From positions 1,512,008 through 1,576,007 of the forward strand of contig JBFWNU010000001.1 of NCBI GenBank assembly GCA_050250895.1: 64,000 nt of DNA, written 5' to 3'. This DNA comes from Vulcanimicrobiota bacterium (lineage in GTDB: Bacteria; Vulcanimicrobiota; Xenobia; Xenobiales; JADMJV01). A program made the translations under genes and the position numbers. Under the pieces are notes generated by a model. It did no database searches, had not been told where the DNA came from, and saw only the letters and a program-made list of their open reading frames with translations. Below, piece after piece: positions 12,195 through 24,323 of this stretch; position 1 is the first letter of the stretch, and every line of letters begins with the position of its first letter.

Positions 12195-12325
12195 CGAAAA
12201 GTCTGGCCCCTTATGTTATCACGACCAGCCAAACAAGGTAAAGGCAAAGGGATCAAACTTCCCAAAACGAAGGACAGGCCACGTCGCTTTCCGGCGGCTC
12301 GAGTGACCAACCCCGGAGGTATGCC

Positions 12326-12838
12326 ATGAGTGGTGCCCAGATGGCTCCAGAATTCAGTCTTGAAGACACGCGAGGTCAGACCGTCAGGCTTTCTGACCAT
12401 CGCGGACGGGTGGTCATTTTGATCTTCGCCAGTCAAGCCACCCAGGAGGCCGCCTCGCGAGCCGCCAGCGGGCTTGGCAAGCGACTTCTACAGAACCCTC
12501 AGGTGGACATGTTCACCATCGTCAGCGTGCCCAAGATGTTCAAAATGATGGCTCAGGGGCTGCTCAAAGGAGCTCAGGACAAGGCTCTCTCGGCAGCTCG
12601 GAAGCGCTTCGAGAAAGAGGGCGCCGAAGTCCCCGCCGACCTGGAAAAGCGCATCTACATCTTGCCAGATTGGAATGGTGAGCAGGTCAAGCAGTTTGGC
12701 TTTGATCCCAAGGCCAAGATGGTCCACGTGGCCCTGGTCGCTCCCGACGGCACGGTGCCCGAGCGGGTCTCTTCGGAAGATGGCGAAAAAGCGGCCGAGG
12801 CCATCGCCGAGAAAACGCTCGCCCTACTCGGCCTGTAG
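12326..12838 (+). CDS. Redoxin/AhpC-TSA-fold protein lacking cysteines
   Basis: APEFSLEDTRGQTVRLSDHRGRVVILIF N-terminus; ILPDWNG; no Cys in the sequence. Confidence 0.7.
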   Translation: MSGAQMAPEFSLEDTRGQTVRLSDHRGRVVILIFASQATQEAASRAASGLGKRLLQNPQVDMFTIVSVPKMFKMMAQGLLKGAQDKALSAARKRFEKEGAEVPADLEKRIYILPDWNGEQVKQFGFDPKAKMVHVALVAPDGTVPERVSSEDGEKAAEAIAEKTLALLGL

Positions 12839-12844
12839 GACCTT

Positions 12845-13342
12845 CTACTTCTCGTCGGTGTTGGTGAAGTCCGACGGCTTGAGGTCGTCGATGAACTTCT
12901 TGAACTCGGTGTATTCCTTGGCGTCGTCGCTGCGCGACTTGTCTTCGACCGTCTCCTCGAGAATGATCTGCTCAGAGACGTAGATGGGCGAGTTGGTGCG
13001 CAGGGCCAGGGCGATGCTGTCACTGGGCCGGGCGTCGATCTCGAGGGGGCCGACGTTGGATTCGAGCACGACCTTGGCATAAAACGTATTCTCTTGAATG
13101 TCGTGAATGATGATACGGTCGACCCGGGCGCGGAGCGCCTCGATGACGGACTTCATCAGGTCGTGAGAGAGCGGGCGAGGGACCTGGGTCCCTTCCAGGG
13201 CGAGGGCGATGGCGGTGGCTTCGAACGGTCCGATCAGGATGGGCAGATGACGCTTGCCTTCGAGGTCTTTCAAGATGACGACCGGGTCGTGGGTGAGGAG
13301 GTCAATCCCCAACTTGTCGACTTTCATCCTCCGCATTCCCAT
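12845..13342 (-). CDS. Bifunctional nuclease family protein (DUF151/BFN)
   Basis: LPILIGPFEATAIA, PRPLSHDL, IDARPSDSIALALR. Start chosen at MGMRRMKV. Confidence 0.9.
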   Translation of the reverse strand: MGMRRMKVDKLGIDLLTHDPVVILKDLEGKRHLPILIGPFEATAIALALEGTQVPRPLSHDLMKSVIEALRARVDRIIIHDIQENTFYAKVVLESNVGPLEIDARPSDSIALALRTNSPIYVSEQIILEETVEDKSRSDDAKEYTEFKKFIDDLKPSDFTNTDEK

Positions 13343-13488
13343 GTGCCGGTTAACCCTCTCTAGATTGAACAAGTATAAAGCGTAGATGCGATGATCCCTG
13401 AGTACTGTTCCCTGGACCACAAGTAAATCCTCTGTCCGCCAGGCAGTTATTACAAGGGCACGGCCCGCGCTCTGGCGAAGGCGGGGCG

Positions 13489-14205
13489 GTGGAAAATCCA
13501 GTAGCCCTCATCTCCGACTGGAAGGGTTTAGCCGGTCCGGCCATCGCCCTGGCCCTGGCCCGTTGTGACTTCTCGCTGATGATCAACGGCCCCGAAGACG
13601 AGATATTCTCTCTTCAGACCGGAGAATTCCACGGCAAGATCCTGGCTCTGCCCTTCGACTACTCCTCTGAAGAGGCGGTCGAGCACGTCTTTTCGGCCGG
13701 GATCGATATCTTTGGGCGGGTCGACATTCTGGTCAACAACATCTATCACTGGAATGATGCGGCCCTGGGCGAGATTACCGATCAGATGTGGAACGACGTG
13801 CTCAACAACAACTTGAGGGCAAGCTTCTATGTTTGCCGCGCAGCCGCCCGACTGATGCAGGCTCTGGAGTATGGCAAGATCATCAACGTCACTTCCACCT
13901 CCTCGTTCTCGGGAGTCCACACCCAGTTTGCTGCCAGTTGCGCAGCCCTGCACTCGTTGACCCGGTCGCTGGCGCGCGAGCTGGCTCCCCTGGTGAGGGT
14001 CAATAGCATCGCCTGCGGACTGGTCGAGGAGCCGTGGGTGGATGAGGGGGGTCCCGAGCTGAGGGCGGCCTTGACGCGCAGTATTCCCCTGGGGCGGTTG
14101 TGCCGCACCGAAGACGTGGCCGAAGCGGTGGCTTACCTGGCCACAGGGGCCGACTTTATGACCGGACAAATGCTGGTGATCGATGGTGGAGAGACGATGC
14201 GATGA
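13489..14205 (+). CDS. SDR-family oxidoreductase-like protein with degenerate catalytic motifs
   Basis: FGRVDILVNN, GKIINVTS, LTRSLARELAP.VRVNSI, FMTGQMLVIDGG; YxxxK position reads FAASC. Confidence 0.8.
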   Translation: MENPVALISDWKGLAGPAIALALARCDFSLMINGPEDEIFSLQTGEFHGKILALPFDYSSEEAVEHVFSAGIDIFGRVDILVNNIYHWNDAALGEITDQMWNDVLNNNLRASFYVCRAAARLMQALEYGKIINVTSTSSFSGVHTQFAASCAALHSLTRSLARELAPLVRVNSIACGLVEEPWVDEGGPELRAALTRSIPLGRLCRTEDVAEAVAYLATGADFMTGQMLVIDGGETMR

Positions 14206-14561
14206 GAGTTTGGCTGTGCCTTTTGTGGCTGGGTTTGAGTCTGGCGGCAGCGGCCGTGCCGGTGGACGAGGCTTCGATGGTGGGTCGCTGGGAAGCTACG
14301 GTCAATCGCCGCACCCCTGACAACAAACGGGTGGAAATCACCTACACCTGGGTGTTTCAAGAAGACCATACGGGCTGGCAGGGGATCAAGAATAGCCAGT
14401 TCGAGGTGGACTCGAAGTCGGAGCTGACCTGGGATATCGACGATCGGACCCTCAATGTGCGCACCAGATCCGGCTTGCGGAGTTATCCGATTATCTCGGT
14501 CAATCGGCTCGAGATGGTCCTGCGCGACGGCAAGCGGGTCACTTACAAGCGCACTCCATAG
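14202..14561 (+). CDS. Small secreted beta-rich (lipocalin-like) protein
   Basis: ATGA overlap with the SDR stop; signal peptide MRVWLCLLWLGLSLAAAA; MVGRWE motif. Confidence 0.65.
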   Translation: MRVWLCLLWLGLSLAAAAVPVDEASMVGRWEATVNRRTPDNKRVEITYTWVFQEDHTGWQGIKNSQFEVDSKSELTWDIDDRTLNVRTRSGLRSYPIISVNRLEMVLRDGKRVTYKRTP

Positions 14562-14612
14562 AAGAAGCGTTCGACAGGACTCGCATGATCGGTCGAGAAC
14601 TTCGCCGCACCC

Positions 14613-16919
14613 ATGCGGCAGCGAGTGGTTCAATGGTTTTTTTTGGTGCTTCTGACGGGTCGCCTCTGGGCGGCTCCGCCACTGGCTGTTCCCGATCCCT
14701 CTAACGGTCAGCTGCTGTTGCTCAAAGACGGGGCCGTGAGGGCCCTGGCCCTCGAAGATGGCCAGGAGCTTTGGAGAACTGCCGTCGACGGAGCCTCGGA
14801 AGGCAAGCTCCTGGTGGTCGACGGTCAACGCTACCTCGCTACCCCCGACAAACTCTACTCCGTGGCTCGCGACGGTGAGGTCGAGCAGTTGGCCGAAATG
14901 GATTGGGGGCCGCAAAGCTATTCTGGCGGCTTGCTCTATGGCTTTGGTGGAAGTGTCTTCTATCGTGGACCCGTGCCCTGGGAAGCCAAAGTGGCCAAGA
15001 TCCAGGCGGTCCTCGAGGCCCCGGATGCGCTGGTTCTCACTACCGAAAAAGAGCTGCTGGTGCTCGACAAAGAGGGCAAGCTGCTGTGGAAAAGCGCGCG
15101 AGCGGCGACCGACCAGGGCCCCTGGCTGCTGAAGGACCTGGTGGTGGTGGGTCGTGGCCAGGACCTGCTAGGCTTCGCTCTGGCCGATGGGCAGCGGCGC
15201 TGGGACTATCGTCTCCGAGGCGATCTGGTCGGCGCCCCCGCCGTCAAAGACGACCTGATGCTGGCATCGTTCAAGGTGGATACCCAGCATTATGTGGTCG
15301 GCATGGGGGCCGACGGCCGTCCGCGTTTTCGCGTGCCCATGGAGGGGACGGTGGTCTCCATGTTGCCTGGCTCGACCCATCTGATTTTCTGCGAGGGTGA
15401 GGGTGGCATCAGCATCTCGGCGCTAGATGAAGCGGGAGTGGCCACCGGGCGATGGGGCTTCGCCGGCGAACTGGTCAAGGCCGTCGAGATGGATGGCAAA
15501 GTCTATGTTTTCATCCGCACCAAGCTGAGCGAGCCCAAATTCGATCTGCCCGGGGCGGCCTTCACCTGGAAACTATTCACCCCCAAGCTCAAACCCGTCT
15601 ACAACCTCAAGACCGGTGAGCCCATGCAGGAAGATATCCAGGGCTACCTGTTGCTGTCGTGGGTGCCGGGCCAGACGCCTGACCAGCTGGCTTCAGAGCC
15701 CCGCCAGAGTCTGGTCGGTCCTATTCAGGTGGTCGAGGACACTTTGCTCTATGCCACCCAGTTTCGCCCCGAGCGTCAGGCCGGCCAGCGGGTCAAGACC
15801 GATTGGCGTCACCCTTACGAGCCGGTGGCCGTGCATGGCGTTCATCAGGGTCAGAGCTGGACCTACGCCCCCACCGAGCGCCGCCAGGCCCCTAGCAAAG
15901 ACCGCCTGCCCGACAAAGCCTTTCCGGTGGATGGCACGAGTTTGCTCTTCACCACGGAAGACGACCGTCTGGCTGCCCTCGCGTTGGCCAGCGGCCAACC
16001 CCTGTGGGAGACCTCGAAGATGCGTCTCGACGAAGGGTCGGCCAGTATCGTGGCTGACGACCAGGGATTGACGGTGTTGACCCAGGTCGGGGCGCTGCAC
16101 TATGCCTATCGGGTCAAGGCTGGTCAGGTGGGCTGGCACAAACCCCTCACCGACGTGTTTTTGTGGGACAAGTTCAACAATCTCATGGGCGTGCTGATCC
16201 TGTGTGCGGCTCTGTGCTACTTCATCTTCGCGGCTCGCCGCCGGGATCTGTTCATCCGGCGCATTGCCGGTCTCAACGCCCTCGACGAGGCGGTGGGCCG
16301 GGCCACCGAGATGGGCAAACCCGTCCTCTATGTTACCGGGCTGGCCGATGTTGACGACATTCAGACCCTGGCATCGCTCTCGATCCTGGGTCACGTGGCC
16401 AAGAAGACCGCCGAATACGACACTCCGATCCTGGTGCCCACCAGCCGGGCGGTGGCCTTCAGCGCGGCTCAAGAGGTGGTCAAGGAGGCCTACACGGCCG
16501 CCGGCCGCCCCGACGCCTTCGTGGCTGATAATGTGCGCTATCTGACCGACGACCAGTTCGGCTACACGGCCGGGATCGACGGCATGATGCTGCGCGAGCG
16601 TCCGGCCGCCAACTTCTACATGGGCAAGTTTTATGCCGAGTCTCTGATTCTGGCCGAGACCGGCCACGCCACCGGGGCCATCCAGATTGCCGGTACGGCG
16701 ATGCCCAGCCAGTTACCGTTCTTCGTGGCCGCCTGCGATTACACGCTGATCGGTGAAGAATTGTTCGCGGCCTCGGCCTATCTTTCCAAAGACCCGCTCC
16801 AGGTCGGCAGCTTACGCGGCCAGGACGTGGGCAAGGCGATCGTGATGGTGTGCCTGGTGCTAGGCGCCCTGGCCATCACCTTCGGTTACGATTTCGTCAA
16901 AGGTTGGTTCGCCACATGA
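14613..16919 (+). CDS. Signal peptide + PQQ/BamB-like beta-propeller + TM + DUF6754-like alpha/beta domain + TM
   Basis: Propeller repeats ALEDGQELW, ALADGQRRW, ALASGQPLW; C-terminal IRRIAGLNALDEAVGRATEMGKP...LIGEELFAASAYL matches DUF6754 as I recall it (not searched). Confidence 0.75.
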   Translation: MRQRVVQWFFLVLLTGRLWAAPPLAVPDPSNGQLLLLKDGAVRALALEDGQELWRTAVDGASEGKLLVVDGQRYLATPDKLYSVARDGEVEQLAEMDWGPQSYSGGLLYGFGGSVFYRGPVPWEAKVAKIQAVLEAPDALVLTTEKELLVLDKEGKLLWKSARAATDQGPWLLKDLVVVGRGQDLLGFALADGQRRWDYRLRGDLVGAPAVKDDLMLASFKVDTQHYVVGMGADGRPRFRVPMEGTVVSMLPGSTHLIFCEGEGGISISALDEAGVATGRWGFAGELVKAVEMDGKVYVFIRTKLSEPKFDLPGAAFTWKLFTPKLKPVYNLKTGEPMQEDIQGYLLLSWVPGQTPDQLASEPRQSLVGPIQVVEDTLLYATQFRPERQAGQRVKTDWRHPYEPVAVHGVHQGQSWTYAPTERRQAPSKDRLPDKAFPVDGTSLLFTTEDDRLAALALASGQPLWETSKMRLDEGSASIVADDQGLTVLTQVGALHYAYRVKAGQVGWHKPLTDVFLWDKFNNLMGVLILCAALCYFIFAARRRDLFIRRIAGLNALDEAVGRATEMGKPVLYVTGLADVDDIQTLASLSILGHVAKKTAEYDTPILVPTSRAVAFSAAQEVVKEAYTAAGRPDAFVADNVRYLTDDQFGYTAGIDGMMLRERPAANFYMGKFYAESLILAETGHATGAIQIAGTAMPSQLPFFVAACDYTLIGEELFAASAYLSKDPLQVGSLRGQDVGKAIVMVCLVLGALAITFGYDFVKGWFAT

Positions 16920-17593
16920 TGCGTCGCCAGATACCGCTCATCATCACCTTCCTGTCCGGGTTGGTGCTGGTGGTTCAATACTACTTTTCTACCCTCAACC
17001 ACATCGGCGATACGGTGGCCGACTGGTTTCAGGCGATTAGCGCTTTCGCCTACGTGTTGGGCGCGGCTAGCCTGGTGGTGGTCAACGGCCGCAAGATCCA
17101 GCGCCAGTCTCCGGGCTGGTTCTACAATCTCGTCTTGCTACTGTCGCTATTCATCACTCTCTATGTGGGCATGTTCAACGACTTCATCGGGTTGGGCTAT
17201 CCCGGGCATAACCCGGTGGCCGAAGGCACGACCTTCGACTGGCTCTTCCAGTATGTTCACACCCCGCTCTCGGCCACCATGTTCAGCTTGCTGGCTTTCT
17301 TCATCGCCTCGGCTGCCTACCGTGCTTTCAAAGCGCGCAGTATCGAGTCGACCTTACTACTGGGCTCGGCCTTTCTGGTGATGATCTTCCGCGTTCCCCT
17401 GGGTGAGTTGATCTGGAACGAGTCGGGCCTGGGCAACTGGTTCTCCATCGGCAAGTTCATCGATGACTACATCATGGGTGGCTTTAACGTGGCCGGCCAG
17501 CGAGCCATTCAGGTGGCCGCGGCCATCGGCCTGATTTCGGTCTCGCTCAAAATCATGCTCGGCATCGAGCGGTCCTATCTGGGAGGTGACTAG
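16916..17593 (+). CDS. Conserved integral membrane protein (~6 TM)
   Basis: ATGA overlap; hydrophobic helices; PLSATMFSLLAFFIASAAYRAFKARS and LGIERSYLG. Confidence 0.8.
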   Translation: MMRRQIPLIITFLSGLVLVVQYYFSTLNHIGDTVADWFQAISAFAYVLGAASLVVVNGRKIQRQSPGWFYNLVLLLSLFITLYVGMFNDFIGLGYPGHNPVAEGTTFDWLFQYVHTPLSATMFSLLAFFIASAAYRAFKARSIESTLLLGSAFLVMIFRVPLGELIWNESGLGNWFSIGKFIDDYIMGGFNVAGQRAIQVAAAIGLISVSLKIMLGIERSYLGGD

Positions 17594-18453
17594 TGGAGCA
17601 GCCCAAGCCCCAGAACGCCGATATCCTCACCCGGCTGGCTACCCTCGATCGGCGCATCATCTTCATCGTCATCGCCTTTGCCGTGGCCATCCCCATCTTT
17701 TTCCCCCTGGGGTTACCCATTGCGCCGACCAAATCGGTGATCGGAGCCTACGACTATACCGAGAAGCTAAAACCCGGCAGCCTGTTGCTCTTTTCATACG
17801 ACTACGGCCCGTCGACCAAGGTCGAGCTACACCCGATGGTTTTGGCTGCCATGGACCAGGTGCTCAAGAAAGACTGCAAGATCATCGGCATGGCCCTCTA
17901 TCCTGAGGGCCAGGCTCTGTGCGACGAGTCGTTTGCGGCCATGATGAAGCTGCACCCCGACAAGAAATACGGCGTCGATCTCGTCAACCTGGGCTATAAG
18001 GCCGGCAACGAGGGCGTGCTGGTCAGTCTGGGCCTCGACTTTCGCGGCCTCTTTCCGGTCGATGCCCGAGGCACGCCCCTATCCGACATTCCCGCCCTGC
18101 GCAGGATCACGCGTCTGCAAGATTTCGACCTGGTGGCCAGCTACTCGGCCGGCTATCCCGGAGCCCTCGAGCACATCCGTCTAACCAACGCCCAGTATGG
18201 CTTGCCGCTGATCGTCGGGACCACGGCCGTGCAGACTCCCCAGTATTATCCCTATTTCAACTCGGGTCAGCTCAAGGGTCTGATCGGCGGGCTGGGCGGC
18301 GCGGCCGAGTACGAGAAGTTGAGCGGCTTTGAGGGCACAGCCACGTCAGGGATGGACGCCCAATCCATCGCTCACTTCGTCATCGCCGCCTTTATCTTGA
18401 TGGCCAACATCATCTACTTCCTACAGTGGCGTGACCGCCAGGAGGCGCGATGA
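17593..18453 (+). CDS. TM + alpha/beta domain + TM protein (probable distant DUF6754 paralogue)
   Basis: TAGTG overlap; YGVDLVNLGYKAG, GQLKGLIGGLGGAAEYE, GMDAQSIAH. Confidence 0.8.
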   Translation: MEQPKPQNADILTRLATLDRRIIFIVIAFAVAIPIFFPLGLPIAPTKSVIGAYDYTEKLKPGSLLLFSYDYGPSTKVELHPMVLAAMDQVLKKDCKIIGMALYPEGQALCDESFAAMMKLHPDKKYGVDLVNLGYKAGNEGVLVSLGLDFRGLFPVDARGTPLSDIPALRRITRLQDFDLVASYSAGYPGALEHIRLTNAQYGLPLIVGTTAVQTPQYYPYFNSGQLKGLIGGLGGAAEYEKLSGFEGTATSGMDAQSIAHFVIAAFILMANIIYFLQWRDRQEAR

Positions 18454-19118
18454 CCGAAACCTACACGATATCGCAGGTCTTCGGGATCTGGACGGCCGGT
18501 TTCTTGACCGTCTGCGTGTTCAGCTTTCTCTACGGCGACAACCCGCTTTACAAATTCGCCGAGCACGTCTATGTCGGGGTCTCGGCCGGTTACTGGATGT
18601 GCCTGGGCTACTGGCAGACTATCGAGCCGATCATCTTCGAGCGCTTGCTCAAGTTCGATTGGTGGGCCCTCTTGCCGCTGGGTCTGGGCATCATGCTACT
18701 GTTGCGGTTGTTTCCCCAGACGGCCTGGGTGTCGCGCTGGCCGCTAGCCTTTCTGGTGGGCGTCTATGCCGGTCTCAACATCGTCTTGACCATGCAGGCT
18801 CAAGTGCTCAAGCAGGTCGAGGACACCATCGTGCCCCTGGCGGGCAGCGAGTTGACCTGGGGTCAACTGGTGGTCAACTGGATCCTGGTGGTGGGCTTTT
18901 TTACCGGTCTCATCTATTTCTACTTCTCGGTCGAGCACAAGGGCTGGTTCTTCGGCGGGGCCGCCCGGGTTGGTATCTGGATGCTGATGATCGCCCTGGG
19001 AGCCTCCTTTGGCTATACGGTCATGGCCCGGGTCTCGCTGTTGATCGGGCGGGTCATGTTCTTTAAAGACGAGTTTTTGCCGGCCACCTTGCACTTTTTC
19101 TTGAGAGGTGGCGGATGA
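18450..19118 (+). CDS. Conserved integral membrane protein (~6 TM)
   Basis: ATGA overlap; SFLYGDNPLYKFAEHVYVGVSAGY and ALGASFGYTVMARVSLLIGR. Confidence 0.8.
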   Translation: MTETYTISQVFGIWTAGFLTVCVFSFLYGDNPLYKFAEHVYVGVSAGYWMCLGYWQTIEPIIFERLLKFDWWALLPLGLGIMLLLRLFPQTAWVSRWPLAFLVGVYAGLNIVLTMQAQVLKQVEDTIVPLAGSELTWGQLVVNWILVVGFFTGLIYFYFSVEHKGWFFGGAARVGIWMLMIALGASFGYTVMARVSLLIGRVMFFKDEFLPATLHFFLRGGG

Positions 19119-19510
19119 GCATCACCTTTCATCCCGCCGCCGAGCGACCGGTGGCGGCGGCCGGGCTGGCCTTCTTTCTGGGCCTGGTCGGGGCCGTCTT
19201 GATGCACCTGGTCTCACCGGTAGTAGCCCTGTCGCTGAGCTTGGCCCTGGCCGCGTCGCTGGCAAGCTTCTTCTTGCCCACCGTTTACGAGTTCGCCGAC
19301 GAGACCATCACGGTCAGCCGGCTGGGCGCCCGCCAGACTTATGCCTGGTCGCGCTTTCGTAGCTTCGAGCAGGACAAGAACGGAGTCTTCCTCTCTCCTT
19401 ATCGCCAGCGCCATCGCCTGGACCGTTTGCGAGGCGTCTTCCTTCCCCTGGACCGCGCCCGCCGCCATCAACTCAAACCGCTGCTGGAGGCCCGTCTTGT
19501 CGAGCGTTAG
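19115..19510 (+). CDS. 2-TM protein with a C-terminal bacterial PH/YcxB-like domain
   Basis: ATGA overlap; FFLPTVYEF...YAWSRFRS...NGVFLSP...RGVFL. Confidence 0.7.
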   Translation: MSITFHPAAERPVAAAGLAFFLGLVGAVLMHLVSPVVALSLSLALAASLASFFLPTVYEFADETITVSRLGARQTYAWSRFRSFEQDKNGVFLSPYRQRHRLDRLRGVFLPLDRARRHQLKPLLEARLVER

Positions 19511-19772
19511 CCAGACCCCCGACGTGGCCACCCTGATCGAGAAGGTCTCGGACCAGATCGTGGCCCGGCGCCTGTCGACGGCGGCCATCTTCATCCTCGA
19601 GTCAGGCAAGCCGCTGACCACCGTGGGTAGCCAGTTTCTGATCTTTCTCGACCCCATCCTCAAGATTTTCTTGACCGTGCCCGACTATCAGCTTTTCATC
19701 GAGCTGCTCGAAGACCGCCAGAAGGTTGAAGAACTCATCTGCGCCATCGAGCGAAAAGAGGACGCGCTGTGA
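19497..19772 (+). CDS. Small conserved helical protein (91 aa)
   Basis: GGAGG 6 nt before TTG 19497; AAIFILESGKPL..VGSQFLIFLDP; stop overlaps the next GTG. Confidence 0.7.
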   Translation: MSSVSQTPDVATLIEKVSDQIVARRLSTAAIFILESGKPLTTVGSQFLIFLDPILKIFLTVPDYQLFIELLEDRQKVEELICAIERKEDAL

Positions 19773-21556
19773 AAGAGATCCGCAGCATTCTGGCCACCGA
19801 TTGCGGCAGCACCACCACCAAGTGCATCCTGATCGAAAAGCAGGGCGACGAGTATCGGCTGGCCGTGCGCGGCGAGGCTCCCACCACGGTCGAGGCCCCG
19901 GCTGAAGATGTCACCCAGGGGGTGGCCAACGCCGTGGCCGAGGTGCAAGAGCTGGCCGGGCGCCCCATGCTCGACGACAAACGCGAGCTGATCAAGCCTT
20001 ACGACGGCAAACAGGGAGTCGACATCTATCTCTCGACCTCGTCGGCGGGCGGGGGTTTGCAGATGGTGGTGGGCGGGGTGGTTCGCGAGATGACGGCCAA
20101 GAGCGCCCAGAAGGCCGCGCTGGGGGCCGGAGCCATCGTGATGGACGTGCTGGCCTCTAACGACAAGCGCCTGCCCCACGAGAAAATCGAGACCATTCGC
20201 CAGCTGCGCCCCGACATGGTGCTGCTGGCCGGCGGAGTCGACGGGGGCACGGTCAAGCATGTGGTCGAGTTGGCTCAGATCGTGGGCGCGGCCGACCCGC
20301 GGCCGCGCCTGGGCGTGAGCTACGAGTTGCCGGTCATCTTCGCGGGCAACATCGACGCTCGCGAGAACGTCGAACAGATCCTGGGACACAAGACGGCGCT
20401 CGAAGTGGTCGACAACCTGCGGCCCTCGATGGAGAAGGAGAATCTCCAGCCCTCGCGCCTCAAGATTCAGGACCAGTTTCTCGAGCACGTCATGGCTCAC
20501 GCGCCCGGCTATCCGCGCCTGATGACCTGGGTCGACGAAGAGATCATGCCGACCCCGGCGGCGGTCGGCTCGATCATGCAGCGGATCGCCGAGAAATACG
20601 ACATCACCGTGGTCGGGGTCGACATCGGCGGCGCTACCACGGATGTCTTCTCGGTCTTCGAGGGAGTCTTCAACCGCACCGTCTCGGCCAACTACGGCAT
20701 GAGCTATTCGTTCTCGAACGTCTTTGCCGACGCCGGCATCGATAACGTCATGCGGTGGGTGCCGTTCGACATGGAAGAGCGTGATCTGCGCAACCGCATC
20801 AAGAACAAGATGATCCGGCCCACCTCGATCCCCTATCTGATGACCGAGTTGGTGGTCGAGCAAGCCATGGCTCGCGAGGCCCTGCGCCTATCCTTTGACC
20901 AGCACAAGCTGCTGGCTACCGGCCTCAAGGGGGTGCAGAGGGTCAACGACATCTCGGCCATGTTCAGCTTTGGCGAAGCGCCTGAAGACACCCTGGTCAA
21001 CGTGATGGAGTTGGACATGCTGATCGGCTCGGGAGGAGTGCTCTCGCATGCCCCCCGCCGGGCTCAGTCGGCTATGATGATGATCGACGCCTTCTTGCCC
21101 GAGGGGGTCACGCAGCTAACGGTCGACTCGATCTTCATGATGCCTCAGCTGGGCGTGCTGGCCAAGGTGCACCCCGAGGCGGCTACCCAGGTGTTCGAGA
21201 AGGACTGCCTGATCTATCTTGGCACCTGTATTGCTCCGGTGGGCCCCTCCAAACCGGGGCGCACCGTGTTGACCGGCACCATCGGGAGCACGGACTTCGA
21301 GCTTCGCTATGGCGAGCTGAAGGTGATTCCCATGAAGGTCGGCGAGAAGGCGTGGGCCCTGTTGCGCCCCACCCGAGGACTGGACGTGGGCGCCGGTCGC
21401 GGCCACCCTCTCGAAACGACCGTCCATGGTGGCGTGGCCGGCATTATCCTCGACGGCCGCGGTCGCCGCCCCTTCGAGGTGCCCAAAGACAAGCAAGAAC
21501 GGATCGAGAAGCTACTGGCCTGGAACAAGGCTCTCGATCTCTATCCGGAGTTCTAA
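19769..21556 (+). CDS. GlmL/MutL-like (glutamate mutase L family) ASKHA ATPase
   Basis: Phosphate-1 ATDCGSTTTK, SSAGGGL, LAGGVDGG, MPTPAAV, phosphate-2 VDIGGATTDVFS, adenosine IGSGGVLSHAP. Confidence 0.85.
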   Translation: MKEIRSILATDCGSTTTKCILIEKQGDEYRLAVRGEAPTTVEAPAEDVTQGVANAVAEVQELAGRPMLDDKRELIKPYDGKQGVDIYLSTSSAGGGLQMVVGGVVREMTAKSAQKAALGAGAIVMDVLASNDKRLPHEKIETIRQLRPDMVLLAGGVDGGTVKHVVELAQIVGAADPRPRLGVSYELPVIFAGNIDARENVEQILGHKTALEVVDNLRPSMEKENLQPSRLKIQDQFLEHVMAHAPGYPRLMTWVDEEIMPTPAAVGSIMQRIAEKYDITVVGVDIGGATTDVFSVFEGVFNRTVSANYGMSYSFSNVFADAGIDNVMRWVPFDMEERDLRNRIKNKMIRPTSIPYLMTELVVEQAMAREALRLSFDQHKLLATGLKGVQRVNDISAMFSFGEAPEDTLVNVMELDMLIGSGGVLSHAPRRAQSAMMMIDAFLPEGVTQLTVDSIFMMPQLGVLAKVHPEAATQVFEKDCLIYLGTCIAPVGPSKPGRTVLTGTIGSTDFELRYGELKVIPMKVGEKAWALLRPTRGLDVGAGRGHPLETTVHGGVAGIILDGRGRRPFEVPKDKQERIEKLLAWNKALDLYPEF

Positions 21557-22677
21557 TGGGAGCCTACACACCCGGCCTCAAGGTCACCGAGAATACGCTG
21601 CTCAAGCTCGAGCGGCGCCTGCCCCTGGATGGCGAGGTGCTCGCGCAGGAAGGCGACAAGGTCGTCTGGGACACCATCGTGGCCCGCACCGACCTGCCCG
21701 GTCGAGTGGACATGATCAACGTGGCCAACAAGCTGGGTATCGAGGCAGCGGCCGTGCCTGGGGCGATGTTCAAGAAGGTCGGCGAGCCCATCGGAAAAGG
21801 CGACCCGATGGCTCAGAACGAGGGTTTTTTCGGGTTTTTCAAGTCGACTCTGCCGGCCCCGATGGCGGGCACCATCGAATCGGTCTCGGAGATCACCGGT
21901 CAGGTCATCTTGCGGGCTCCGCCACGACTGGTCGAGATTTCGGCCTATGTCGAGGGGGTGGTCGATCAGGTGCTGCCCAACCAGGGGGTGGTGGTCAAGA
22001 CTTTCGGCACTTTTATCCAGGGTATTTTCGGCATCGGCGGCGAGACCTCGGGCGAACTGGTGATGGTGGCCGAGGCTCCCGACCAGCCGATGACCCCCGA
22101 TCAAATCAAGCCCGAACACGCCGGTAAGATCGTAGTCGGCGGCAGCCTGGTCACCAACCCGGTGCTGGCGGCCGCCATTTCGACCGGGGTGAAGGGTCTC
22201 ATCGTGGGCGGGATTCACGACCAGGACCTGCGCGATTTTCTGGGCTACGACCTGGGCGTGGCCATTACCGGCTCCGAGCGCAAGGGGGTGACCCTGGTAG
22301 TCACCGAGGGCTTTGGCCCCATCCCCATGGCTCGGCGCACCTTCGAGCTGTTGCGCTCGAAGGTGGGCCGGCGCGCCTCAATGTCGGGGGCCACCCAGAT
22401 CCGCGCCGGCGTGATTCGCCCCGAAGTGATCATTCCCGAGCTCGAAGGCGACTGGCTGCAGAGCGAAGACCGCGTGCTCGATCTCGAACTGGCCGTAGGC
22501 GCTCCGGTGCGTATCATCCGTGAGCCCAACTTTGGCCGCCTGGCCAAGGTGGTGGCCCTGCCGGTCGAACCGGCCGTCATTCCCAGCGAGGCCAAGGTGC
22601 GAGTGGCCGAGATCGAACTCGAAGGCGGCGAGCGAATGATTTTGCCCCGAGCGAATCTGGAGCTGATCGAAGGCTGA
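21556..22677 (+). CDS. Conserved protein with barrel-sandwich-hybrid (RnfC/NqrA-N-like) segments, an alpha/beta core and a C-terminal KOW/SH3-like domain
   Basis: TAATG overlap; GEVLAQEGDKV, APMAGTIESVS, AYVEGVVDQV; LVVTEGFG; VGAPVRIIREPNFGRLAKV. Confidence 0.75.
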   Translation: MGAYTPGLKVTENTLLKLERRLPLDGEVLAQEGDKVVWDTIVARTDLPGRVDMINVANKLGIEAAAVPGAMFKKVGEPIGKGDPMAQNEGFFGFFKSTLPAPMAGTIESVSEITGQVILRAPPRLVEISAYVEGVVDQVLPNQGVVVKTFGTFIQGIFGIGGETSGELVMVAEAPDQPMTPDQIKPEHAGKIVVGGSLVTNPVLAAAISTGVKGLIVGGIHDQDLRDFLGYDLGVAITGSERKGVTLVVTEGFGPIPMARRTFELLRSKVGRRASMSGATQIRAGVIRPEVIIPELEGDWLQSEDRVLDLELAVGAPVRIIREPNFGRLAKVVALPVEPAVIPSEAKVRVAEIELEGGERMILPRANLELIEG

Positions 22678-22812
22678 GGCCGCTCGCTTTGCTCGCCGGG
22701 GAGCGCTCGCTGTGCTCGCGAGAAAGGAGCGCCGACTGCGTCGGCGGGAGTGGGAGCTCTTGCTTCGCTCGAGGGAAGGGAGCGTCGGTCGCTGCCGCTC
22801 CCTCCGGGAGTT
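22678..22812. repeat. REP-like palindromic cluster between convergent genes
   Basis: cgctcgctttgctcgc / cgctcgctgtgctcgc; hairpins cgccgac-tgc-gtcggcg and gggagcg...cgctccc. Confidence 0.5.
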
Positions 22813-22815
22813 GGG

Positions 22816-23724
22816 CTAAAGGGCCAGGTCGAGCAGGAGTTTGGTGTGGCCTCGGGTGAGGCGCCAGCGGGGTTGGGCGCGCTCAAGGCGGGTCCAGCCG
22901 AGGGTCAGAATGTCGCCTGGCTCGAGGCCGAGTTGATGCAGCGGTCCCTGGCAGCCCGGTGAGCAGCTGATATGGTAGACATCCCACTCACTGTCGAGCC
23001 GGCAGCCGGGTTGCAGTCGCCCGCGGACGGCCACGGCCTGGTGGGTGCGCTGCAGCCGATCGGCCCGGTCGACGACTTCGAGTTGTCGCGAAAGCGGAGC
23101 GGTAGCCATCCAGCCGTCGGCCCCCCGGGTGAAGCTGACATCGGGAAATTCACTCTCGAGAGCACGGATGATGCTATCATCCTGGGTATTGGGCTGAAAG
23201 GGAAGTGGCCCTGACTGCACGGGTGTTTGGTCGATGGCTGCGAGCAGGCGCTTGAAGGCCAGCAGATCCACCAGGGAGCCGACACAGTAGAAGCCGTTCA
23301 GCTTCGGATGTAAGCGGAGGACCATGGTAGGAAATCGACGCTGCATGAGAGGCAGCAACTCTCGGGCCGACGCCCCTTCCAGTAGAAACTCCTGACCGCA
23401 GTACTCCCCTCGGATATCGCGCACCGGGATGAGTAGCAACTGGCGGCCGACCAGCTTCCACTCGTCGCGGCCCACTATTTCATCGAGGGCCTGTAGGGCC
23501 GATGCGCCGGTCAAGTCGAGGTTGACCTGGCCCTCGAGGTTACCGATCACTTCCAGGCCGGCCCGCTGGGCGACCAGGGCGATGGCCTGGTCGCGGCCGA
23601 ATTGGCCCCGCAGTTCGACCGGCGTCTCGAGGCCGATAGGTTGGCGGGTGAGGGCCGCCGAGAGGACCACGACCACCAGCAAGAACCCGAGTTCGGCCAC
23701 TCTTCGCACGTTCAGTCCCACCAC
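22816..23724 (-). CDS. Membrane-anchored protein with secretin N-terminal-type (STN/N0 + NolW-like) domains and no secretin barrel
   Basis: GQVNLDLTGASALQALDEIV; LEGASARELLPLM...NGFYCVGS...KRLLAAIDQ. Start may be GTG ~23709. Confidence 0.55.
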   Translation of the reverse strand: MVGLNVRRVAELGFLLVVVVLSAALTRQPIGLETPVELRGQFGRDQAIALVAQRAGLEVIGNLEGQVNLDLTGASALQALDEIVGRDEWKLVGRQLLLIPVRDIRGEYCGQEFLLEGASARELLPLMQRRFPTMVLRLHPKLNGFYCVGSLVDLLAFKRLLAAIDQTPVQSGPLPFQPNTQDDSIIRALESEFPDVSFTRGADGWMATAPLSRQLEVVDRADRLQRTHQAVAVRGRLQPGCRLDSEWDVYHISCSPGCQGPLHQLGLEPGDILTLGWTRLERAQPRWRLTRGHTKLLLDLAL

Positions 23725-24323
23725 AGGTCGAGCATCTGCTCTTGCCGGATCTGTTCTTGCAGAGCTTCGATGTCGCCCAGGCCTTGATCGACGATGTCGG
23801 GGCAGAAGCGGTAGACGCGGGCGGCGAACTCGGGGAGGGGGTCGGGCACCTTCTTGAGTCGCAAAGTGATGGAGTCGGTACTGGCCTGATAGATGTCGAT
23901 ACCTAGCTCGCGGTCCCAGGCTTGCAGCTCGTCGACGAGATCCGAGGTGCTCAGGCCATAGTTGACCGCGTCGCTGGCGGCCACCCGCAGGATTTCAAAC
24001 TGGTTCGAGCCGGGGGCGACCACCAACTCGGTGCCCTGGGCGGGCGGGTCGGCCAGGCTGTGGATGGTGCCGATGAAGGCCACGTAGCCGGCCGGCAGGC
24101 GAGCCCGGATGTCGGCTAACAGGGGTTCGGCTTGCTCAGGGTCGACCAGCACCGAACGCGCACCATCGTAACGCTCACGACCGAATTCGCGGGTAGAAAA
24201 AGGACGCACGGGCTGACCGGTGGCCTCGGCCAGGACTTGCTCGGCCGGGTCGCTGGCGCCGCCTGGGCCGCAGGCCACCATCAAAGCCAGCATCAGCATG
24301 CCAAAGTCGCGCAGTCTGGACAC
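23712..24323 (-). CDS. DUF4253-family lipoprotein
   Basis: Lipobox MVAC; NYGLST..L...L..W, FCPDIVDQG, C-terminal LWWD. Confidence 0.75.
   Translation of the reverse strand: MSRLRDFGMLMLALMVACGPGGASDPAEQVLAEATGQPVRPFSTREFGRERYDGARSVLVDPEQAEPLLADIRARLPAGYVAFIGTIHSLADPPAQGTELVVAPGSNQFEILRVAASDAVNYGLSTSDLVDELQAWDRELGIDIYQASTDSITLRLKKVPDPLPEFAARVYRFCPDIVDQGLGDIEALQEQIRQEQMLDLWWD

What the first reader, a model, noticed from the sequence alone, without database searches (positions are those of the whole stretch)
14613..22677. Candidate undescribed ATP-driven membrane system built around an orphan GlmL-like ASKHA ATPase
Seen: eight genes whose stops and starts all overlap (ATGA, TAGTG, GTGA, TAATG and one 14-nt overlap). 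They encode a periplasmic propeller-TM-DUF6754-like protein, two ~6-TM proteins, a TM-alpha/beta-TM protein, a 2-TM PH-like protein, a small helical protein, a GlmL/MutL-family protein with intact ASKHA phosphate-1/2 and adenosine motifs, and a hybrid-barrel/KOW protein. Established: GlmL/MutL-type proteins are known as putative reactivases encoded beside B12 mutases (glutamate mutase, ornithine/lysine aminomutase). No mutase subunit or DxHxxG B12-binding protein is present in this window. Inference: the ATPase has been repurposed to energise a new transporter, translocase or signalling complex, with the propeller as a substrate-capture module. From memory, similar clusters occur uncharacterised in other poorly cultured phyla; this was not verified.
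Basis: partly seen in the sequence, partly recalled or inferred. Interest (0 to 1): 0.9.

Follow-up and report, generated by a model that had tools for sequence, protein, structure and literature searches.

The report
Conserved actin-fold ATPase membrane operon
Eight tightly packed genes encode an actin/Hsp70-fold ATPase, its partner protein and a set of membrane proteins that occur together in many little-studied bacterial phyla, are not linked to vitamin-B12 enzymes, and match nothing whose function is known.

Summary
Eight overlapping + strand genes (14613-22677) encode a propeller-TM-DUF6754 protein, three further membrane proteins, two small proteins, a 595-aa PF13941 (GlmL/MutL) ASKHA protein and a three-domain partner.

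The gene set is conserved as two modules: G1-G4 (membrane) and G6-G8 plus an optional G5. Of 80 related loci, 27 hold G1-G4, G7 and G8. In a 61-genome sample of the phylum, DUF6754 and PF13941 occur in exactly the same 34 genomes.

The long G7 form is a separate clade. It is 57-80% identical across phyla but only 26-31% identical to short GlmL paralogues. In the same phylum, four of six such paralogues examined sit in glutamate-mutase or ornithine-aminomutase operons. The window's genome has no GlmE match. G7-G8 fusions are common (50 of 51 longer relatives of G8).

Function is not shown. My best reading (about 0.45) is an ATP-driven membrane transport or translocation machine. Context hints at amino acids or peptides, but weakly. 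Fold searches gave only generic or domain-level matches, and the one complex prediction gave no verdict.

No paper was found in seven searches. This scan has flagged the same system before on other DNA (at least 16 notes, all "uncharacterised"). The propeller ectodomain was seen only here among 28 relatives scanned.

The parts
14613..16919 (+). G1, 768 aa. Signal-like N-terminus, periplasmic BamB/PQQ-type beta-propeller (res ~38-500), TM helix (523-541), cytoplasmic Rossmann-like DUF6754 domain (514-764 = nt 16152-16904), C-terminal TM helix (739-757).
   Evidence: Pfam; hydropathy; DUF6754 model at pLDDT 85.9; 45 invariant columns in 27 sequences.
16916..17593 (+). G2, 225 aa polytopic membrane protein, no family. 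Conserved core P..ATMFSLLAFF.ASAA.RAF and C-terminal LGIERSYLGG.
   Evidence: No Pfam or NCBIfam match; alignment A2; hydropathy; found in 29 of 80 loci.
17593..18453 (+). G3, 286 aa. N-terminal TM (22-40), ~215-aa middle domain predicted outside the membrane, C-terminal TM (259-277). The positive-inside rule puts the middle domain in the periplasm (inference).
   Evidence: found in 30 of 80 loci.
18450..19118 (+). G4, 222 aa polytopic membrane protein, no family. Invariant D30 N31 E38 R96 Q122 R194.
   Evidence: found in 29 of 80 loci.
19115..19510 (+). G5, 131 aa. Hydrophobic N-terminal hairpin plus an Arg-rich C-terminal domain (weak YcxB/bacterial PH-like hit). Optional subunit.
   Evidence: E 0.0039, below cut-off; tblastn hit in 17 of 80 loci. 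Absent upstream of G6 in Riflebacteria-type, Cloacimonadota-type and several gcvPB-linked loci.
19497..19772 (+). G6, ~91 aa small helical protein with a conserved R...LE..KPL...Q...P...Y...LE.R pattern. Start is TTG 19497 or GTG 19524.
   Evidence: found in 46 of 80 loci, directly before G7.
19769..21556 (+). G7, 595 aa long-form GlmL/MutL-family ASKHA protein: PF13941 core (res 7-480) plus a ~115-aa C-terminal extension.
21556..22677 (+). G8, 373 aa cytoplasmic partner of G7. Three domains: barrel-sandwich hybrid (model res ~8-125), swivelling beta/beta/alpha domain (~130-300), KOW/SH3-like barrel (~310-374).
   Evidence: Model; fold searches. 50 of 51 longer relatives are fused to PF13941. 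Directly after G7 in 47 of 80 loci.

Best explanation
The eight genes encode one self-contained, widely conserved system made of two modules.

Module M is an inner-membrane complex:
- G1: a variable ectodomain, one TM helix, a near-invariant cytoplasmic Rossmann-like DUF6754 domain, and a second TM helix.
- G2 and G4: polytopic subunits.
- G3: a domain held between two TM helices, probably periplasmic.

Module C is a cytoplasmic nucleotide-driven unit:
- G7: a long-form GlmL-type ASKHA ATPase.
- G8: a barrel, a swivelling domain and a KOW-like barrel.
- G6: a small protein.
- G5: in some lineages, a membrane-anchored PH-like protein.

Most likely mechanism (inferred, not shown): G7 and G8 bind and hydrolyse ATP. 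The resulting domain movement is passed to the cytoplasmic DUF6754 domain and through the TM helices of G1 and G3 to the G2/G4 core. That drives transport or translocation of a substrate across the cytoplasmic membrane. The direction and the substrate are unknown. Neighbouring genes in other phyla lean weakly towards amino-acid or peptide uptake.

G7 does not work as a B12-mutase helper.
For: Shown here:
1. Tight translational coupling of all eight genes.
2. Conserved gene order as two blocks. Among the 27 of 80 loci that hold G1-G4, G7 and G8, the orders are G5-G6-G7-G8-G1-G2-G3-G4 (10), G6-G7-G8-G1-4 (6), G1-4-G6-G7-G8 (6) and other (5).
3. Genome-level co-occurrence. PF20539 over cut-off and PF13941 (E<=1e-20) occur in the same 34 of 61 genomes of the phylum, and both are missing from the other 27. 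In 5 of 5 genomes where G7 stands alone in its locus, DUF6754 and G8 lie elsewhere in the genome.
4. G7-G8 fusions: 50 of 51 longer G8 relatives carry PF13941.
5. Separation from mutase helpers:
   - The long forms are one clade (stem 1.43, SH-like support 100; 26 of 78 long rows used, plus 6 short rows).
   - Identity to short forms is 26-31%, against 55-80% among long forms.
   - Of 6 short forms in the same phylum, 3 lie in GlmS-MutL-GlmE-methylaspartate-lyase operons and 1 in an ornithine aminomutase operon. The other 2 lie beside an alanine-racemase-like gene, with no mutase seen.
   - The window's genome has one PF13941 gene over the cut-off (plus one sub-threshold match elsewhere, 21.5 bits), one PF20539 gene and no GlmE match.
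6. Very strong constraint. 167 of 595 G7 positions are at least 98% identical in 78 sequences from many phyla, including all nucleotide-binding motifs. DUF6754 has 45 invariant columns. The system is kept in 1.4-Mb genomes.
7. Topology. G8 and DUF6754 are cytoplasmic and the ectodomain is outside. This is consistent with a single read-through or fusion protein, G8-TM-Fn3-TM-DUF6754 (P0004).
8. One ATPase with more than one membrane module: genome G005 has 2 DUF6754 genes and 1 G8.

Context hints:
- gcvT-gcvH-gcvPA-gcvPB, or gcvPB alone, ends within 10 nt of G5/G6 or overlaps it in 9 of 80 loci.
- In 3 Riflebacteria-type loci, SBP_bac_5-OppD-OppF lies directly before G1.
Against: - No subunit matches any transporter, pump, secretion or ATP-synthase family in Pfam, NCBIfam or PADLOC.
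- The DUF6754 fold is a generic Rossmann-like fold. Best hits are Sir2 Z 10.3, MT0777 10.0 and transhydrogenase dIII 9.5, but 145 chains reach Z>=8.
- The swivelling domain of G8 has no invariant His or Cys, so a PTS- or PPDK-type phosphorelay is not supported.
- ATP hydrolysis, complex formation and a substrate are all untested.
- The operon is split in many genomes. Only 15 of the 36 loci with at least 9 kb on both sides of G7 hold G1-G4. The closest relatives keep G7 about 24 kb from the membrane genes.
- No riboswitch or other ligand-telling element was found in the window or in 35 related loci.
- The gcv and Opp neighbours occur in a minority of loci and could be inherited synteny. The OppDF pair probably serves OppBC permeases encoded elsewhere.
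- Wzy_C and Wzz genes flank the same Riflebacteria loci, which would point to export instead.
Confidence: 0.45

Rival explanations
1. Reactivase-like maintenance of a membrane enzyme. G7 with the swivelling domain of G8 acts like the ATP-dependent reactivases of B12 enzymes, but on the membrane-tethered Rossmann-like DUF6754 domain. It would open that domain to load, exchange or reset a bound nucleotide-type cofactor. The membrane module would be an enzyme or an ion-coupled converter rather than a substrate transporter.
For: - G7 is a true PF13941 family member.
- G8 carries a swivelling beta/beta/alpha domain.
- DUF6754 is a Rossmann-like domain whose best fold neighbours bind NAD(P) or FAD (Sir2, transhydrogenase dIII, CODH epsilon). 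It has many invariant acidic and polar residues plus one invariant Cys.
- Recalled, not tested: diol dehydratase reactivase alpha combines an ASKHA ATPase with a swivelling domain and binds a Rossmann-like beta subunit. RACo-type ASKHA activators act on corrinoid proteins.
Against: - No B12-binding motif or domain is present. DUF6754 has no invariant His.
- Diol dehydratase reactivase did not appear among the listed fold matches of G8.
- No cofactor can be inferred.
- The variable ectodomains and the multiple membrane modules per ATPase fit transport or recognition better.
Confidence: 0.2
2. A signalling or envelope-sensing complex. The variable ectodomain (propeller or Fn3) senses an envelope or external cue, and G7/G8 are the cytoplasmic output or regulator.
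For: - Ectodomains vary (fn3 in 5 of 28, PQQ_2 in 1 of 28) on an almost invariant cytoplasmic domain.
- A PH-like membrane adaptor (G5) is present in some lineages.
Against: - There is no kinase, cyclase, HTH or receiver domain in any of the eight proteins.
- G7 identity of 55-80% across phyla and retention in 1.4-Mb genomes are unusual for sensors.
- Four dedicated membrane subunits are more than sensing needs.
Confidence: 0.1
3. An actin-like scaffold. G7 polymerises like MreB, FtsA or ParM on a membrane receptor complex and organises envelope synthesis.
For: - ASKHA fold.
- Membrane partners with periplasmic domains, recalling MreBCD or PilMNO in outline (recalled).
- Wzy_C and Wzz neighbours in 3-4 Riflebacteria-type loci.
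Against: - G7 belongs to the GlmL/hydantoinase-like branch (PF13941, weak PF01968), not to the actin-like filament families.
- Its obligate partner G8 has no counterpart in those systems.
- Polymerisation was not tested.
Confidence: 0.05
4. G7 is an ordinary GlmL that serves a B12-dependent mutase encoded elsewhere, and the membrane genes are unrelated neighbours.
For: Pfam and NCBI-style naming ('glutamate mutase L').
Against: - The genome (99.6% complete) has no GlmE match.
- All three NCBIfam GlmL models score below their cut-offs.
- G7 falls in a separate clade.
- It co-occurs perfectly with DUF6754.
- Genomes that have mutase operons carry their own short GlmL as well.
Confidence: 0.02

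Closest known systems
GlmL/MutL (methylaspartate mutase accessory protein) and the Or-4 GlmL-related protein of ornithine degradation (Pfam PF13941; NCBIfam NF040745, NF040744, TIGR01319)
   Same: Same Pfam family over res 7-480 (E 3e-124). Same ASKHA nucleotide-binding motifs.
   Different: - 595 aa with a ~115-aa C-terminal extension, against 455-502 aa.
- 26-31% identity.
- Below all three NCBIfam cut-offs.
- Separate clade.
- Never beside a mutase in the 80 loci whose repeated neighbour families I annotated. Instead it is linked to G8, G6 and DUF6754.
- Even the function of canonical GlmL is only presumed (recalled).
Diol dehydratase / glycerol dehydratase reactivase (DdrAB, PduGH)
   Same: An ASKHA ATPase working with a swivelling domain and acting on a Rossmann-like partner domain. 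This is a resemblance in outline, and the DdrA architecture is recalled.
   Different: - No sequence or listed fold match.
- Here the swivelling domain is on a separate protein with extra barrel and KOW domains.
- The Rossmann-like domain is held between two TM helices.
- No B12 enzyme is present.
Phosphohistidine swivelling domains (PTS Enzyme I, rifampin phosphotransferase, pyruvate kinase C-terminal domain), RraA, and the aconitase X small subunit
   Same: The middle domain of G8 aligns with 2wqd_A (Z 9.2, rmsd 3.0, 108 res), RraA 3c8o_A (Z 8.9, 127 res), 5hv1_A (Z 8.6) and 7cnr_B (Z 7.6).
   Different: - No invariant His in 52 sequences.
- Z values lie in the range the tool calls common.
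NqrA / RnfC N-terminal barrel-sandwich hybrid domain of Na+-NQR and Rnf
   Same: G8 res 49-123 aligns with RnfC 8ahx_C (Z 7.4, 65 res) and NqrA 4u9o_A (Z 7.4, 64 res). 19% of one related Atlas cluster hits PF13375 RnfC_N. In outline both systems pair a soluble barrel-bearing subunit with two ~220-aa polytopic subunits and bitopic subunits.
   Different: - G2, G4 and the other subunits had no Pfam or NCBIfam family match at all.
- There are no conserved Cys.
- There are no flavin or Fe-S domains.
DHS-like / Rossmann nucleotide-binding domains (Sir2, transhydrogenase dIII, RCK/KTN)
   Same: The cytoplasmic domain of DUF6754 aligns with 3u31_A (Z 10.3, 142 res), 1kjn_B (Z 10.0), 4j16_C (Z 9.5) and several RCK domains at about Z 9.
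   Different: Generic similarity only: 145 chains reach Z>=8, and there is no shared motif. The domain is inserted between two TM helices.
Binding-protein-dependent ABC importers (architecture only)
   Same: Two ~220-aa polytopic subunits, an extracytoplasmic alpha/beta domain and a cytoplasmic nucleotide-driven unit. One ATPase may serve several membrane modules. SBP_bac_5-OppD-OppF lies next to G1 in 3 loci.
   Different: - None of the eight proteins has an ABC_tran or BPD_transp_1 domain.
- The ATPase has the ASKHA fold.

Membership tests
GlmL/MutL B12-mutase accessory proteins | Match to Pfam PF13941 | tested here: met
   E 3e-124, res 7-480, covering the whole model.
GlmL/MutL B12-mutase accessory proteins | Reaches the curated NCBIfam cut-offs (NF040745 GlmL, NF040744 Or-4, TIGR01319) | tested here: not met
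   228.8 vs 475 bits, 224 vs 600 bits, 153.8 vs 204.05 bits.
GlmL/MutL B12-mutase accessory proteins | Encoded beside glutamate mutase or aminomutase subunits (B12-binding plus catalytic chain) | tested here: not met
   - None in the 34 window ORFs scanned.
- No PF06368 match in the 99.6%-complete genome.
- The PF09043 search was blank, but its control rang nowhere, so that part is inconclusive.
- Short paralogues in the same phylum do sit in such operons.
GlmL/MutL B12-mutase accessory proteins | Groups with mutase-linked sequences in a tree | tested here: not met
   FastTree: the long forms are one clade apart from both short-form groups (support 100, stem 1.43). Caveats: midpoint root, long branches, and only 26 of 78 long rows used.
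ASKHA (acetate and sugar kinase / Hsc70 / actin) nucleotide-binding superfamily | Phosphate-1, phosphate-2 and adenosine motifs intact | tested here: met
   TDCGSTTTK, VDIGGATTDVFSV and GSGGVLSHAPRR are at least 98% conserved in 78 sequences. The motif names and their roles are recalled. ATP binding itself was not tested.
DUF6754 (PF20539) | Full-length match over the curated cut-off | tested here: met
   391.9 bits vs 27, model positions 4-255 of 257.
ABC transporters | ABC_tran nucleotide-binding domain and a recognised permease family | tested here: not met
   None of the eight proteins has either at E<=0.01.
PTS Enzyme I / PPDK-type phosphotransfer swivelling domain | Swivelling beta/beta/alpha fold | tested here: inconclusive
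   Z 9.2 to 2wqd_A over 108 residues, a range the tool calls common. RraA and aconitase X score equally well.
PTS Enzyme I / PPDK-type phosphotransfer swivelling domain | Conserved phospho-acceptor histidine | tested here: not met
   There is no His among the invariant or nearly invariant columns of 52 G8 sequences.
Rnf / Na+-NQR | RnfA/E-NqrD/E-type membrane subunits with conserved Cys, and flavin or Fe-S subunits | tested here: not met
   G2 and G4 have no Pfam or NCBIfam family match at all and no invariant Cys. Only the N-terminal barrel of G8 resembles RnfC/NqrA (Z 7.4).
Known or candidate anti-phage defence systems | Match to any PADLOC model | tested here: not met
   0 of 8 proteins.

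The most novel reading that the evidence does not exclude
This is a new class of primary membrane machine in which an actin/Hsp70-fold (ASKHA) ATPase with a swivelling-domain partner powers transport or translocation through a four-subunit membrane complex. That would set it apart from machines powered by ABC, P-type, rotary or AAA+ ATPases. It would be a near-housekeeping function in dozens of mostly uncultured phyla, kept even in 1.4-Mb genomes.
Probability: 0.35. Interest if true: 0.9.

Novelty: categorically new. Interest (0 to 1): 0.8.

Why it matters
Six of the eight proteins have no assigned function. The seventh, G7, is routinely mis-named "glutamate mutase L" (names seen).

The system is widespread. 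G8 alone has 2398 representative clusters at E<=0.001, and 473 at E<=1e-30, among 1.84 billion. It is conserved at a level typical of core machinery and is present in very small genomes.

If it is an ASKHA-powered transporter or converter, it adds a new energising principle to membrane biology. It would also explain a conserved block of "hypothetical" genes in Eremiobacterota, Planctomycetota, Armatimonadota, Cloacimonadota, WOR-3, Zixibacteria, Poribacteria and others.

It also corrects annotation. Long-form PF13941 genes should not be read as evidence of B12-dependent glutamate fermentation.

Complete genomes of named strains carry it (Planctomicrobium sp. SH664 and SH668, loci L072 and L073), so it may be testable by genetics.

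Tried and rejected
- **Complex prediction.** G8 with the cytoplasmic DUF6754 domain (A6 residues 42-226): no verdict, score 0.00 in two runs, controls not run. This counts neither for nor against binding.
- **PDB by sequence.** Nothing for G7 at E<=1, G8 at E<=10 or the G7 profile A7 (only two chance rows at E 2.1).
- **ESM Atlas.** G8 returned only its own family. G4 against named clusters gave no usable hit. Neither has an Atlas structure.
- **Paralogy.** hhalign found no similarity for G2 vs G4 or for G3 vs DUF6754: probabilities 0.8%, 0.7% and 0.9%.
  - No Rfam match at E<=0.1 in window 11000-24000.
  - 35 related loci scanned at gathering score gave only 3 tRNAs.
  - RF00168 matched 1 of 50 carrier genomes. 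That copy precedes an unrelated 454-aa ORF with no G1-G8 homologue within 14 kb.
  - The lead is not reproduced and not refuted, because the two relatives it names were not in my set.
- **OppDF as the motor of G1-G4.** Rejected as unsupported. The best OppBC pairs in the same genomes have their own SBP but no ATPase nearby, so OppDF probably serve them.
- **Defence system.** No PADLOC match.
- **Promoter and terminator scan.** 0 promoter-like sites. Terminator-like sites were at the shuffle level, 9 vs 6.3 +/- 2.4.
- **Expression.** No RNA holder listed, and only two DNA runs with 5-7% of the words.
- **Literature.**
  - 0 papers each for 'DUF6754', 'PF13941', 'GlmL'+'ASKHA', 'TIGR01319' and 'methylaspartate mutase'+'MutL'+'reactivat'.
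  - 'glutamate mutase L' gave 1 paper, irrelevant by its title (PMC4389238; listing only).
  - 'GlmL' alone gave 869 papers of noise, of which only the listing of 25 was seen.
  - No paper was read.

Full report
**1. The observation**

The + strand between 14613 and 22677 carries eight ORFs with overlapping junctions: ATGA (G1/G2, G3/G4, G4/G5), TAGTG (G2/G3), GTGA (G6/G7) and TAATG (G7/G8). G5/G6 overlaps by 14 nt if G6 starts at TTG 19497; a GTG at 19524 is the alternative. G8 starts at 21556, three bases later than I first assumed, so A1 and model numbering is true+1.

Pfam and NCBIfam give:
- G1: PQQ_2 propeller plus DUF6754 (E 1.3e-117).
- G7: PF13941 MutL (E 3e-124), but below the curated cut-offs of all three NCBIfam GlmL models.
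- G5: only a sub-threshold YcxB hit.
- G8: only a sub-threshold Biotin_lipoyl hit.
- G2, G3, G4 and G6: nothing.

A simple hydropathy scan fits two polytopic proteins (G2, G4), a TM-domain-TM protein (G3) and two TM helices flanking the DUF6754 domain of G1. The flanking genes (alanyl-tRNA synthetase, an HD-domain protein, SDR, GST, acyl-CoA metabolism) are unrelated. None of the 34 window ORFs scanned has a B12-binding or mutase domain (14 ORFs beyond 40.7 kb were not scanned).

**2. Conservation of the gene set**

A scan of 185,579 species genomes with G7 found 142 relatives, of which 80 loci were kept. The closest are Eremiobacterota/Xenobia MAGs (80% identity). The others come from many phyla, including Latescibacterota, Fermentibacteria, Cloacimonadota, WOR-3, Zixibacteria, Poribacteria, Planctomycetota, Armatimonadota, Riflebacteria, Marinimicrobia, Eisenbacteria and Calescibacteria. 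These still share 55-71% identity.

tblastn of the eight window proteins against these loci gave:

| Gene | Loci with a hit (of 80) |
|---|---|
| G8 | 55 (directly after G7 in 47) |
| G6 | 46 |
| G1, G2, G3, G4 | 29-30 each |
| G5 | 17 |
| G1-G4 + G7 + G8 together | 27 |

Among those 27 loci the orders are G5-G6-G7-G8-G1-G2-G3-G4 (10), G6-G7-G8-G1-4 (6), G1-4-G6-G7-G8 (6) and other (5). This shows two blocks, [G1-G4] and [(G5)-G6-G7-G8].

Many loci are short contigs. Among the 36 loci with at least 9 kb on both sides of G7, 15 hold G1-G4 and 21 hold G8. The operon is therefore often split, and it is split in the closest relatives:
- L004 and L005 have G7 alone among unrelated genes.
- L006 keeps G2-G6 about 9 kb away on the other strand.

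G5 is optional.

**3. Genome-level linkage**

In 5 of 5 genomes whose G7 locus lacks the other genes, DUF6754 and G8 are present elsewhere. Two of these genomes are only 1.4 Mb, and one of those two has two DUF6754 genes but one G8. In Planctomicrobium, G8 sits directly before the DUF6754 gene while G7 is about 480 kb away.

In a 61-genome sample of the window's phylum (all at least 85% complete), PF20539 over cut-off and PF13941 at E<=1e-20 are found in exactly the same 34 genomes. Both are missing from the same 27, which include whole families (0 of 17 and 0 of 5). Related genomes are not independent, so this shows joint inheritance and joint loss rather than a statistic.

The window's genome (99.6% complete) has one gene of each over the cut-off, plus one sub-threshold PF13941 match on another contig (E 4.6e-4, 21.5 bits). 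It has no GlmE match. The lysine aminomutase search was blank, but its control rang nowhere.

**4. Not a mutase helper**

Five genomes of the phylum sample also hold short PF13941 genes (455-502 aa). I examined six of these genes:
- Three lie in B12-binding (GlmS)-MutL-GlmE-methylaspartate ammonia-lyase operons.
- One lies in an OAM_alpha-OraE(B12)-MutL-racemase operon.
- Two lie beside a racemase-like gene, with no mutase seen in the ORFs scanned.

The window's G7 is 26-31% identical to them. In a FastTree of 26 long rows (every third of 78) and the 6 short rows, the long forms are one clade on a stem of 1.43 with support 100 (midpoint root, long-branch warning).

**5. G7 and G8**

G7 is extraordinarily constrained. 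167 of 595 positions are at least 98% identical in 78 sequences, including TDCGSTTTK, STSSAGGGLQ, GGxDGG, VDIGGATTDVFSV, GSGGVLSHAPRR and DSIFMMPxLGVL. The ~115-aa C-terminal extension is less conserved but keeps GGVxGxIxDxRGRP.

G8 is fused to the C-terminus of G7 in 50 of the 51 longer relatives found. Forty-seven of these (943-1022 aa) are full fusions and three are fragments.

A model of G8 (pLDDT 86.9) has three domains:
- A barrel-sandwich hybrid. Best neighbours are the RnfC and NqrA N-termini (Z 7.4).
- A swivelling beta/beta/alpha domain. Neighbours are PTS Enzyme I 2wqd Z 9.2, RraA Z 8.9-9.1, rifampin phosphotransferase Z 8.5-8.6, AF0055/aconitase X Z 7.6-8.9 and the pyruvate kinase C-terminal domain Z 7.7.
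- A KOW/SH3-like barrel (Z 8.7).

These Z values are in the range the tool calls common, so they assign folds, not functions. G8 has no invariant His or Cys. Its invariant residues lie in the loops FIQGIFGIGGE, LGVAITGxE, TEGFG, GATQIRAGVIRPE and RxIRxPxFG.

**6. The membrane module**

The DUF6754 part of G1 (model pLDDT 85.9) is a long TM helix, a Rossmann-like alpha/beta domain and a second long helix. Arg-rich flanks place the domain in the cytoplasm (inference). Fold neighbours are nucleotide-binding Rossmann-like domains: Sir2 Z 10.3, MT0777 10.0, transhydrogenase dIII 9.5, RCK/KTN about 9 and CODH epsilon by Foldseek. However, 145 chains reach Z>=8.

Forty-five of its columns are invariant in 27 sequences, including several Glu, Asp and Gln residues and a Cys-Asp-Tyr triplet.

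The ectodomain varies. Of 28 relatives, 5 have fn3 and only the window has PQQ_2. Long G1 frames (800-930 aa) elsewhere in the phylum suggest the large head is a lineage trait.

One single-sequence protein, P0004, reads G8, hydrophobic segment, Fn3, TM, DUF6754 in one frame. This is topologically consistent with G8 and DUF6754 inside and Fn3 outside. It may be a read-through artefact.

G2 and G4 are not detectably related to each other, nor G3 to DUF6754.

**7. What it does**

Nothing here shows a function. The anatomy points to an ATP-driven transport or translocation machine, and I give that reading about 0.45:
- a nucleotide-driven cytoplasmic unit,
- a conserved cytoplasmic docking-type domain tethered by two TM helices,
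- two polytopic subunits,
- an extracytoplasmic domain subunit,
- variable ectodomains,
- sometimes several membrane modules per ATPase.

Context gives weak hints about the substrate:
- In 9 loci of FCB-type phyla, glycine-cleavage genes end within 10 nt of G5/G6 or overlap it. These are gcvT-H-PA-PB in L008, and gcvPB at least in the others.
- In 3 Riflebacteria-type loci, an SBP_bac_5 peptide-binding protein and OppD/OppF lie directly before G1. The same loci also carry Wzy_C and Wzz genes at the flanks.
- The OppDF pair most likely serves OppBC permeases encoded elsewhere.

The main rival (0.2) is a reactivase-like role. By analogy with B12-enzyme reactivases (recalled), G7 plus the swivelling domain would act on the Rossmann-like DUF6754 domain to load or reset a cofactor. 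Signalling (0.1), an actin-like scaffold (0.05) and an ordinary GlmL (0.02) are less likely.

**8. Novelty**

No described system matched in Pfam, NCBIfam, PADLOC, PDB sequences or PDB folds. Seven full-text searches found no paper on it. Only listings were seen, and subscription journals are not covered.

This scan has met the same system before on other DNA. The notes are e1-3120175, e1-2111297, e1-3389924, e1-358430, e1-1159726, e1-5130646, e1-1169250, e1-2212277, e1-4271297, e1-2109903, e1-2075333, e1-4675729, e1-3328180, e1-1924469, e1-2111293 and e1-5047484. All call it uncharacterised. They are AI notes and not independent evidence.

- the same-genome coexistence of long and short GlmL forms, with their contexts,
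- the exact 34/34 co-occurrence in one phylum,
- the domain anatomy of G8,
- the gcv and Opp contexts,
- a negative test of the riboswitch lead.

Noticed in passing
L008:4828-9209, and L014, L019, L020, L022, L024, L028, L031, L078 just upstream of G5/G6: Glycine-cleavage genes are translationally coupled to the first gene of the ATPase module in 9 of 80 loci from several FCB-type phyla. L008 has gcvT, gcvH, gcvPA and gcvPB; some loci have only gcvPB. This holds even where G8 and G1-G4 are detached (L022, L028, L031).
   Followed up: partly
L016:1497-5466, L018:1793-5557, L068:2122-5795: An SBP_bac_5 peptide-binding protein and OppD/OppF ATPases lie directly before G1, with no permease genes in the locus. 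The best OppBC pairs in the same genomes have an SBP but no ATPase nearby, so this looks like a split Opp system. Wzy_C/TPR and Wzz/GNVR genes flank the whole block.
   Followed up: partly
L090, L092, L093, L094 (genomes G007, G063, G065, G032 of the window's phylum): Complete glutamate mutase (GlmS-MutL-GlmE-methylaspartate ammonia-lyase-AtuA-like) and ornithine aminomutase operons occur in some members of this phylum, alongside the long-form G7 system.
   Followed up: yes
P0004 (707 aa, one sequence): A single open frame joins G8 to the signal/TM segment, Fn3, TM and DUF6754 of the next gene. It is either a real fusion or a lost stop codon.
   Followed up: partly
L053, L059, L060, L062 downstream of G7: In four small-genome loci (Calescibacteria-type), G7 is followed by an aldehyde dehydrogenase and five conserved ORFs with no Pfam match (cluster families 29-33), instead of by G8.
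   Followed up: partly
L009:11805-12722, L042:11785-12603, L044, L045: An extra ~270-300-aa ORF with no Pfam match is inserted between G7 and G8 in four Zixibacteria/FCB-type loci.
   Followed up: no
L020, L023, L046, L050, L052 between G3 and G4: G3 and G4 are separated by 1.3-4 kb of inserted genes. In L023 and L046 the insert is a sulfatase-family gene.
   Followed up: partly
window 19688-20863 (-), 15693-16667 (-), 14133-14915 (-): Long antisense ORFs (391, 324 and 260 aa) overlap G7 and G1. Antisense ORFs opposite G7 also clustered across loci (families 4 and 8). This is typical of G+C-rich coding DNA; they are not genes.
   Followed up: partly
window 22730-22746: A 7-bp G+C-rich hairpin lies between the convergent ends of G8 (stop at 22677) and the minus-strand ORF 22816-23724. 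It was scored as a minus-strand terminator-like site.
   Followed up: no
window 1971-5756 (-), 33751-35322 (-), 35319-36596 (-): A 1261-aa protein whose only recognised domains are two C-terminal PilZ stretches; a type II secretion F-like protein with an N-terminal GAF domain; and, overlapping it, a Ser/Thr kinase with a PEGA domain.
   Followed up: no
G051 (same family as the window's genome, 97% complete): This close relative has neither PF13941 nor a real DUF6754 match (only E 2e-4). The system may have been lost recently within the family, or it may lie in an unassembled part.
   Followed up: no
L098:1831-2015 (G076:C38): The only lysine riboswitch found in 50 carrier genomes precedes a 454-aa ORF that I did not identify and that is unrelated to G1-G8.
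   Followed up: partly
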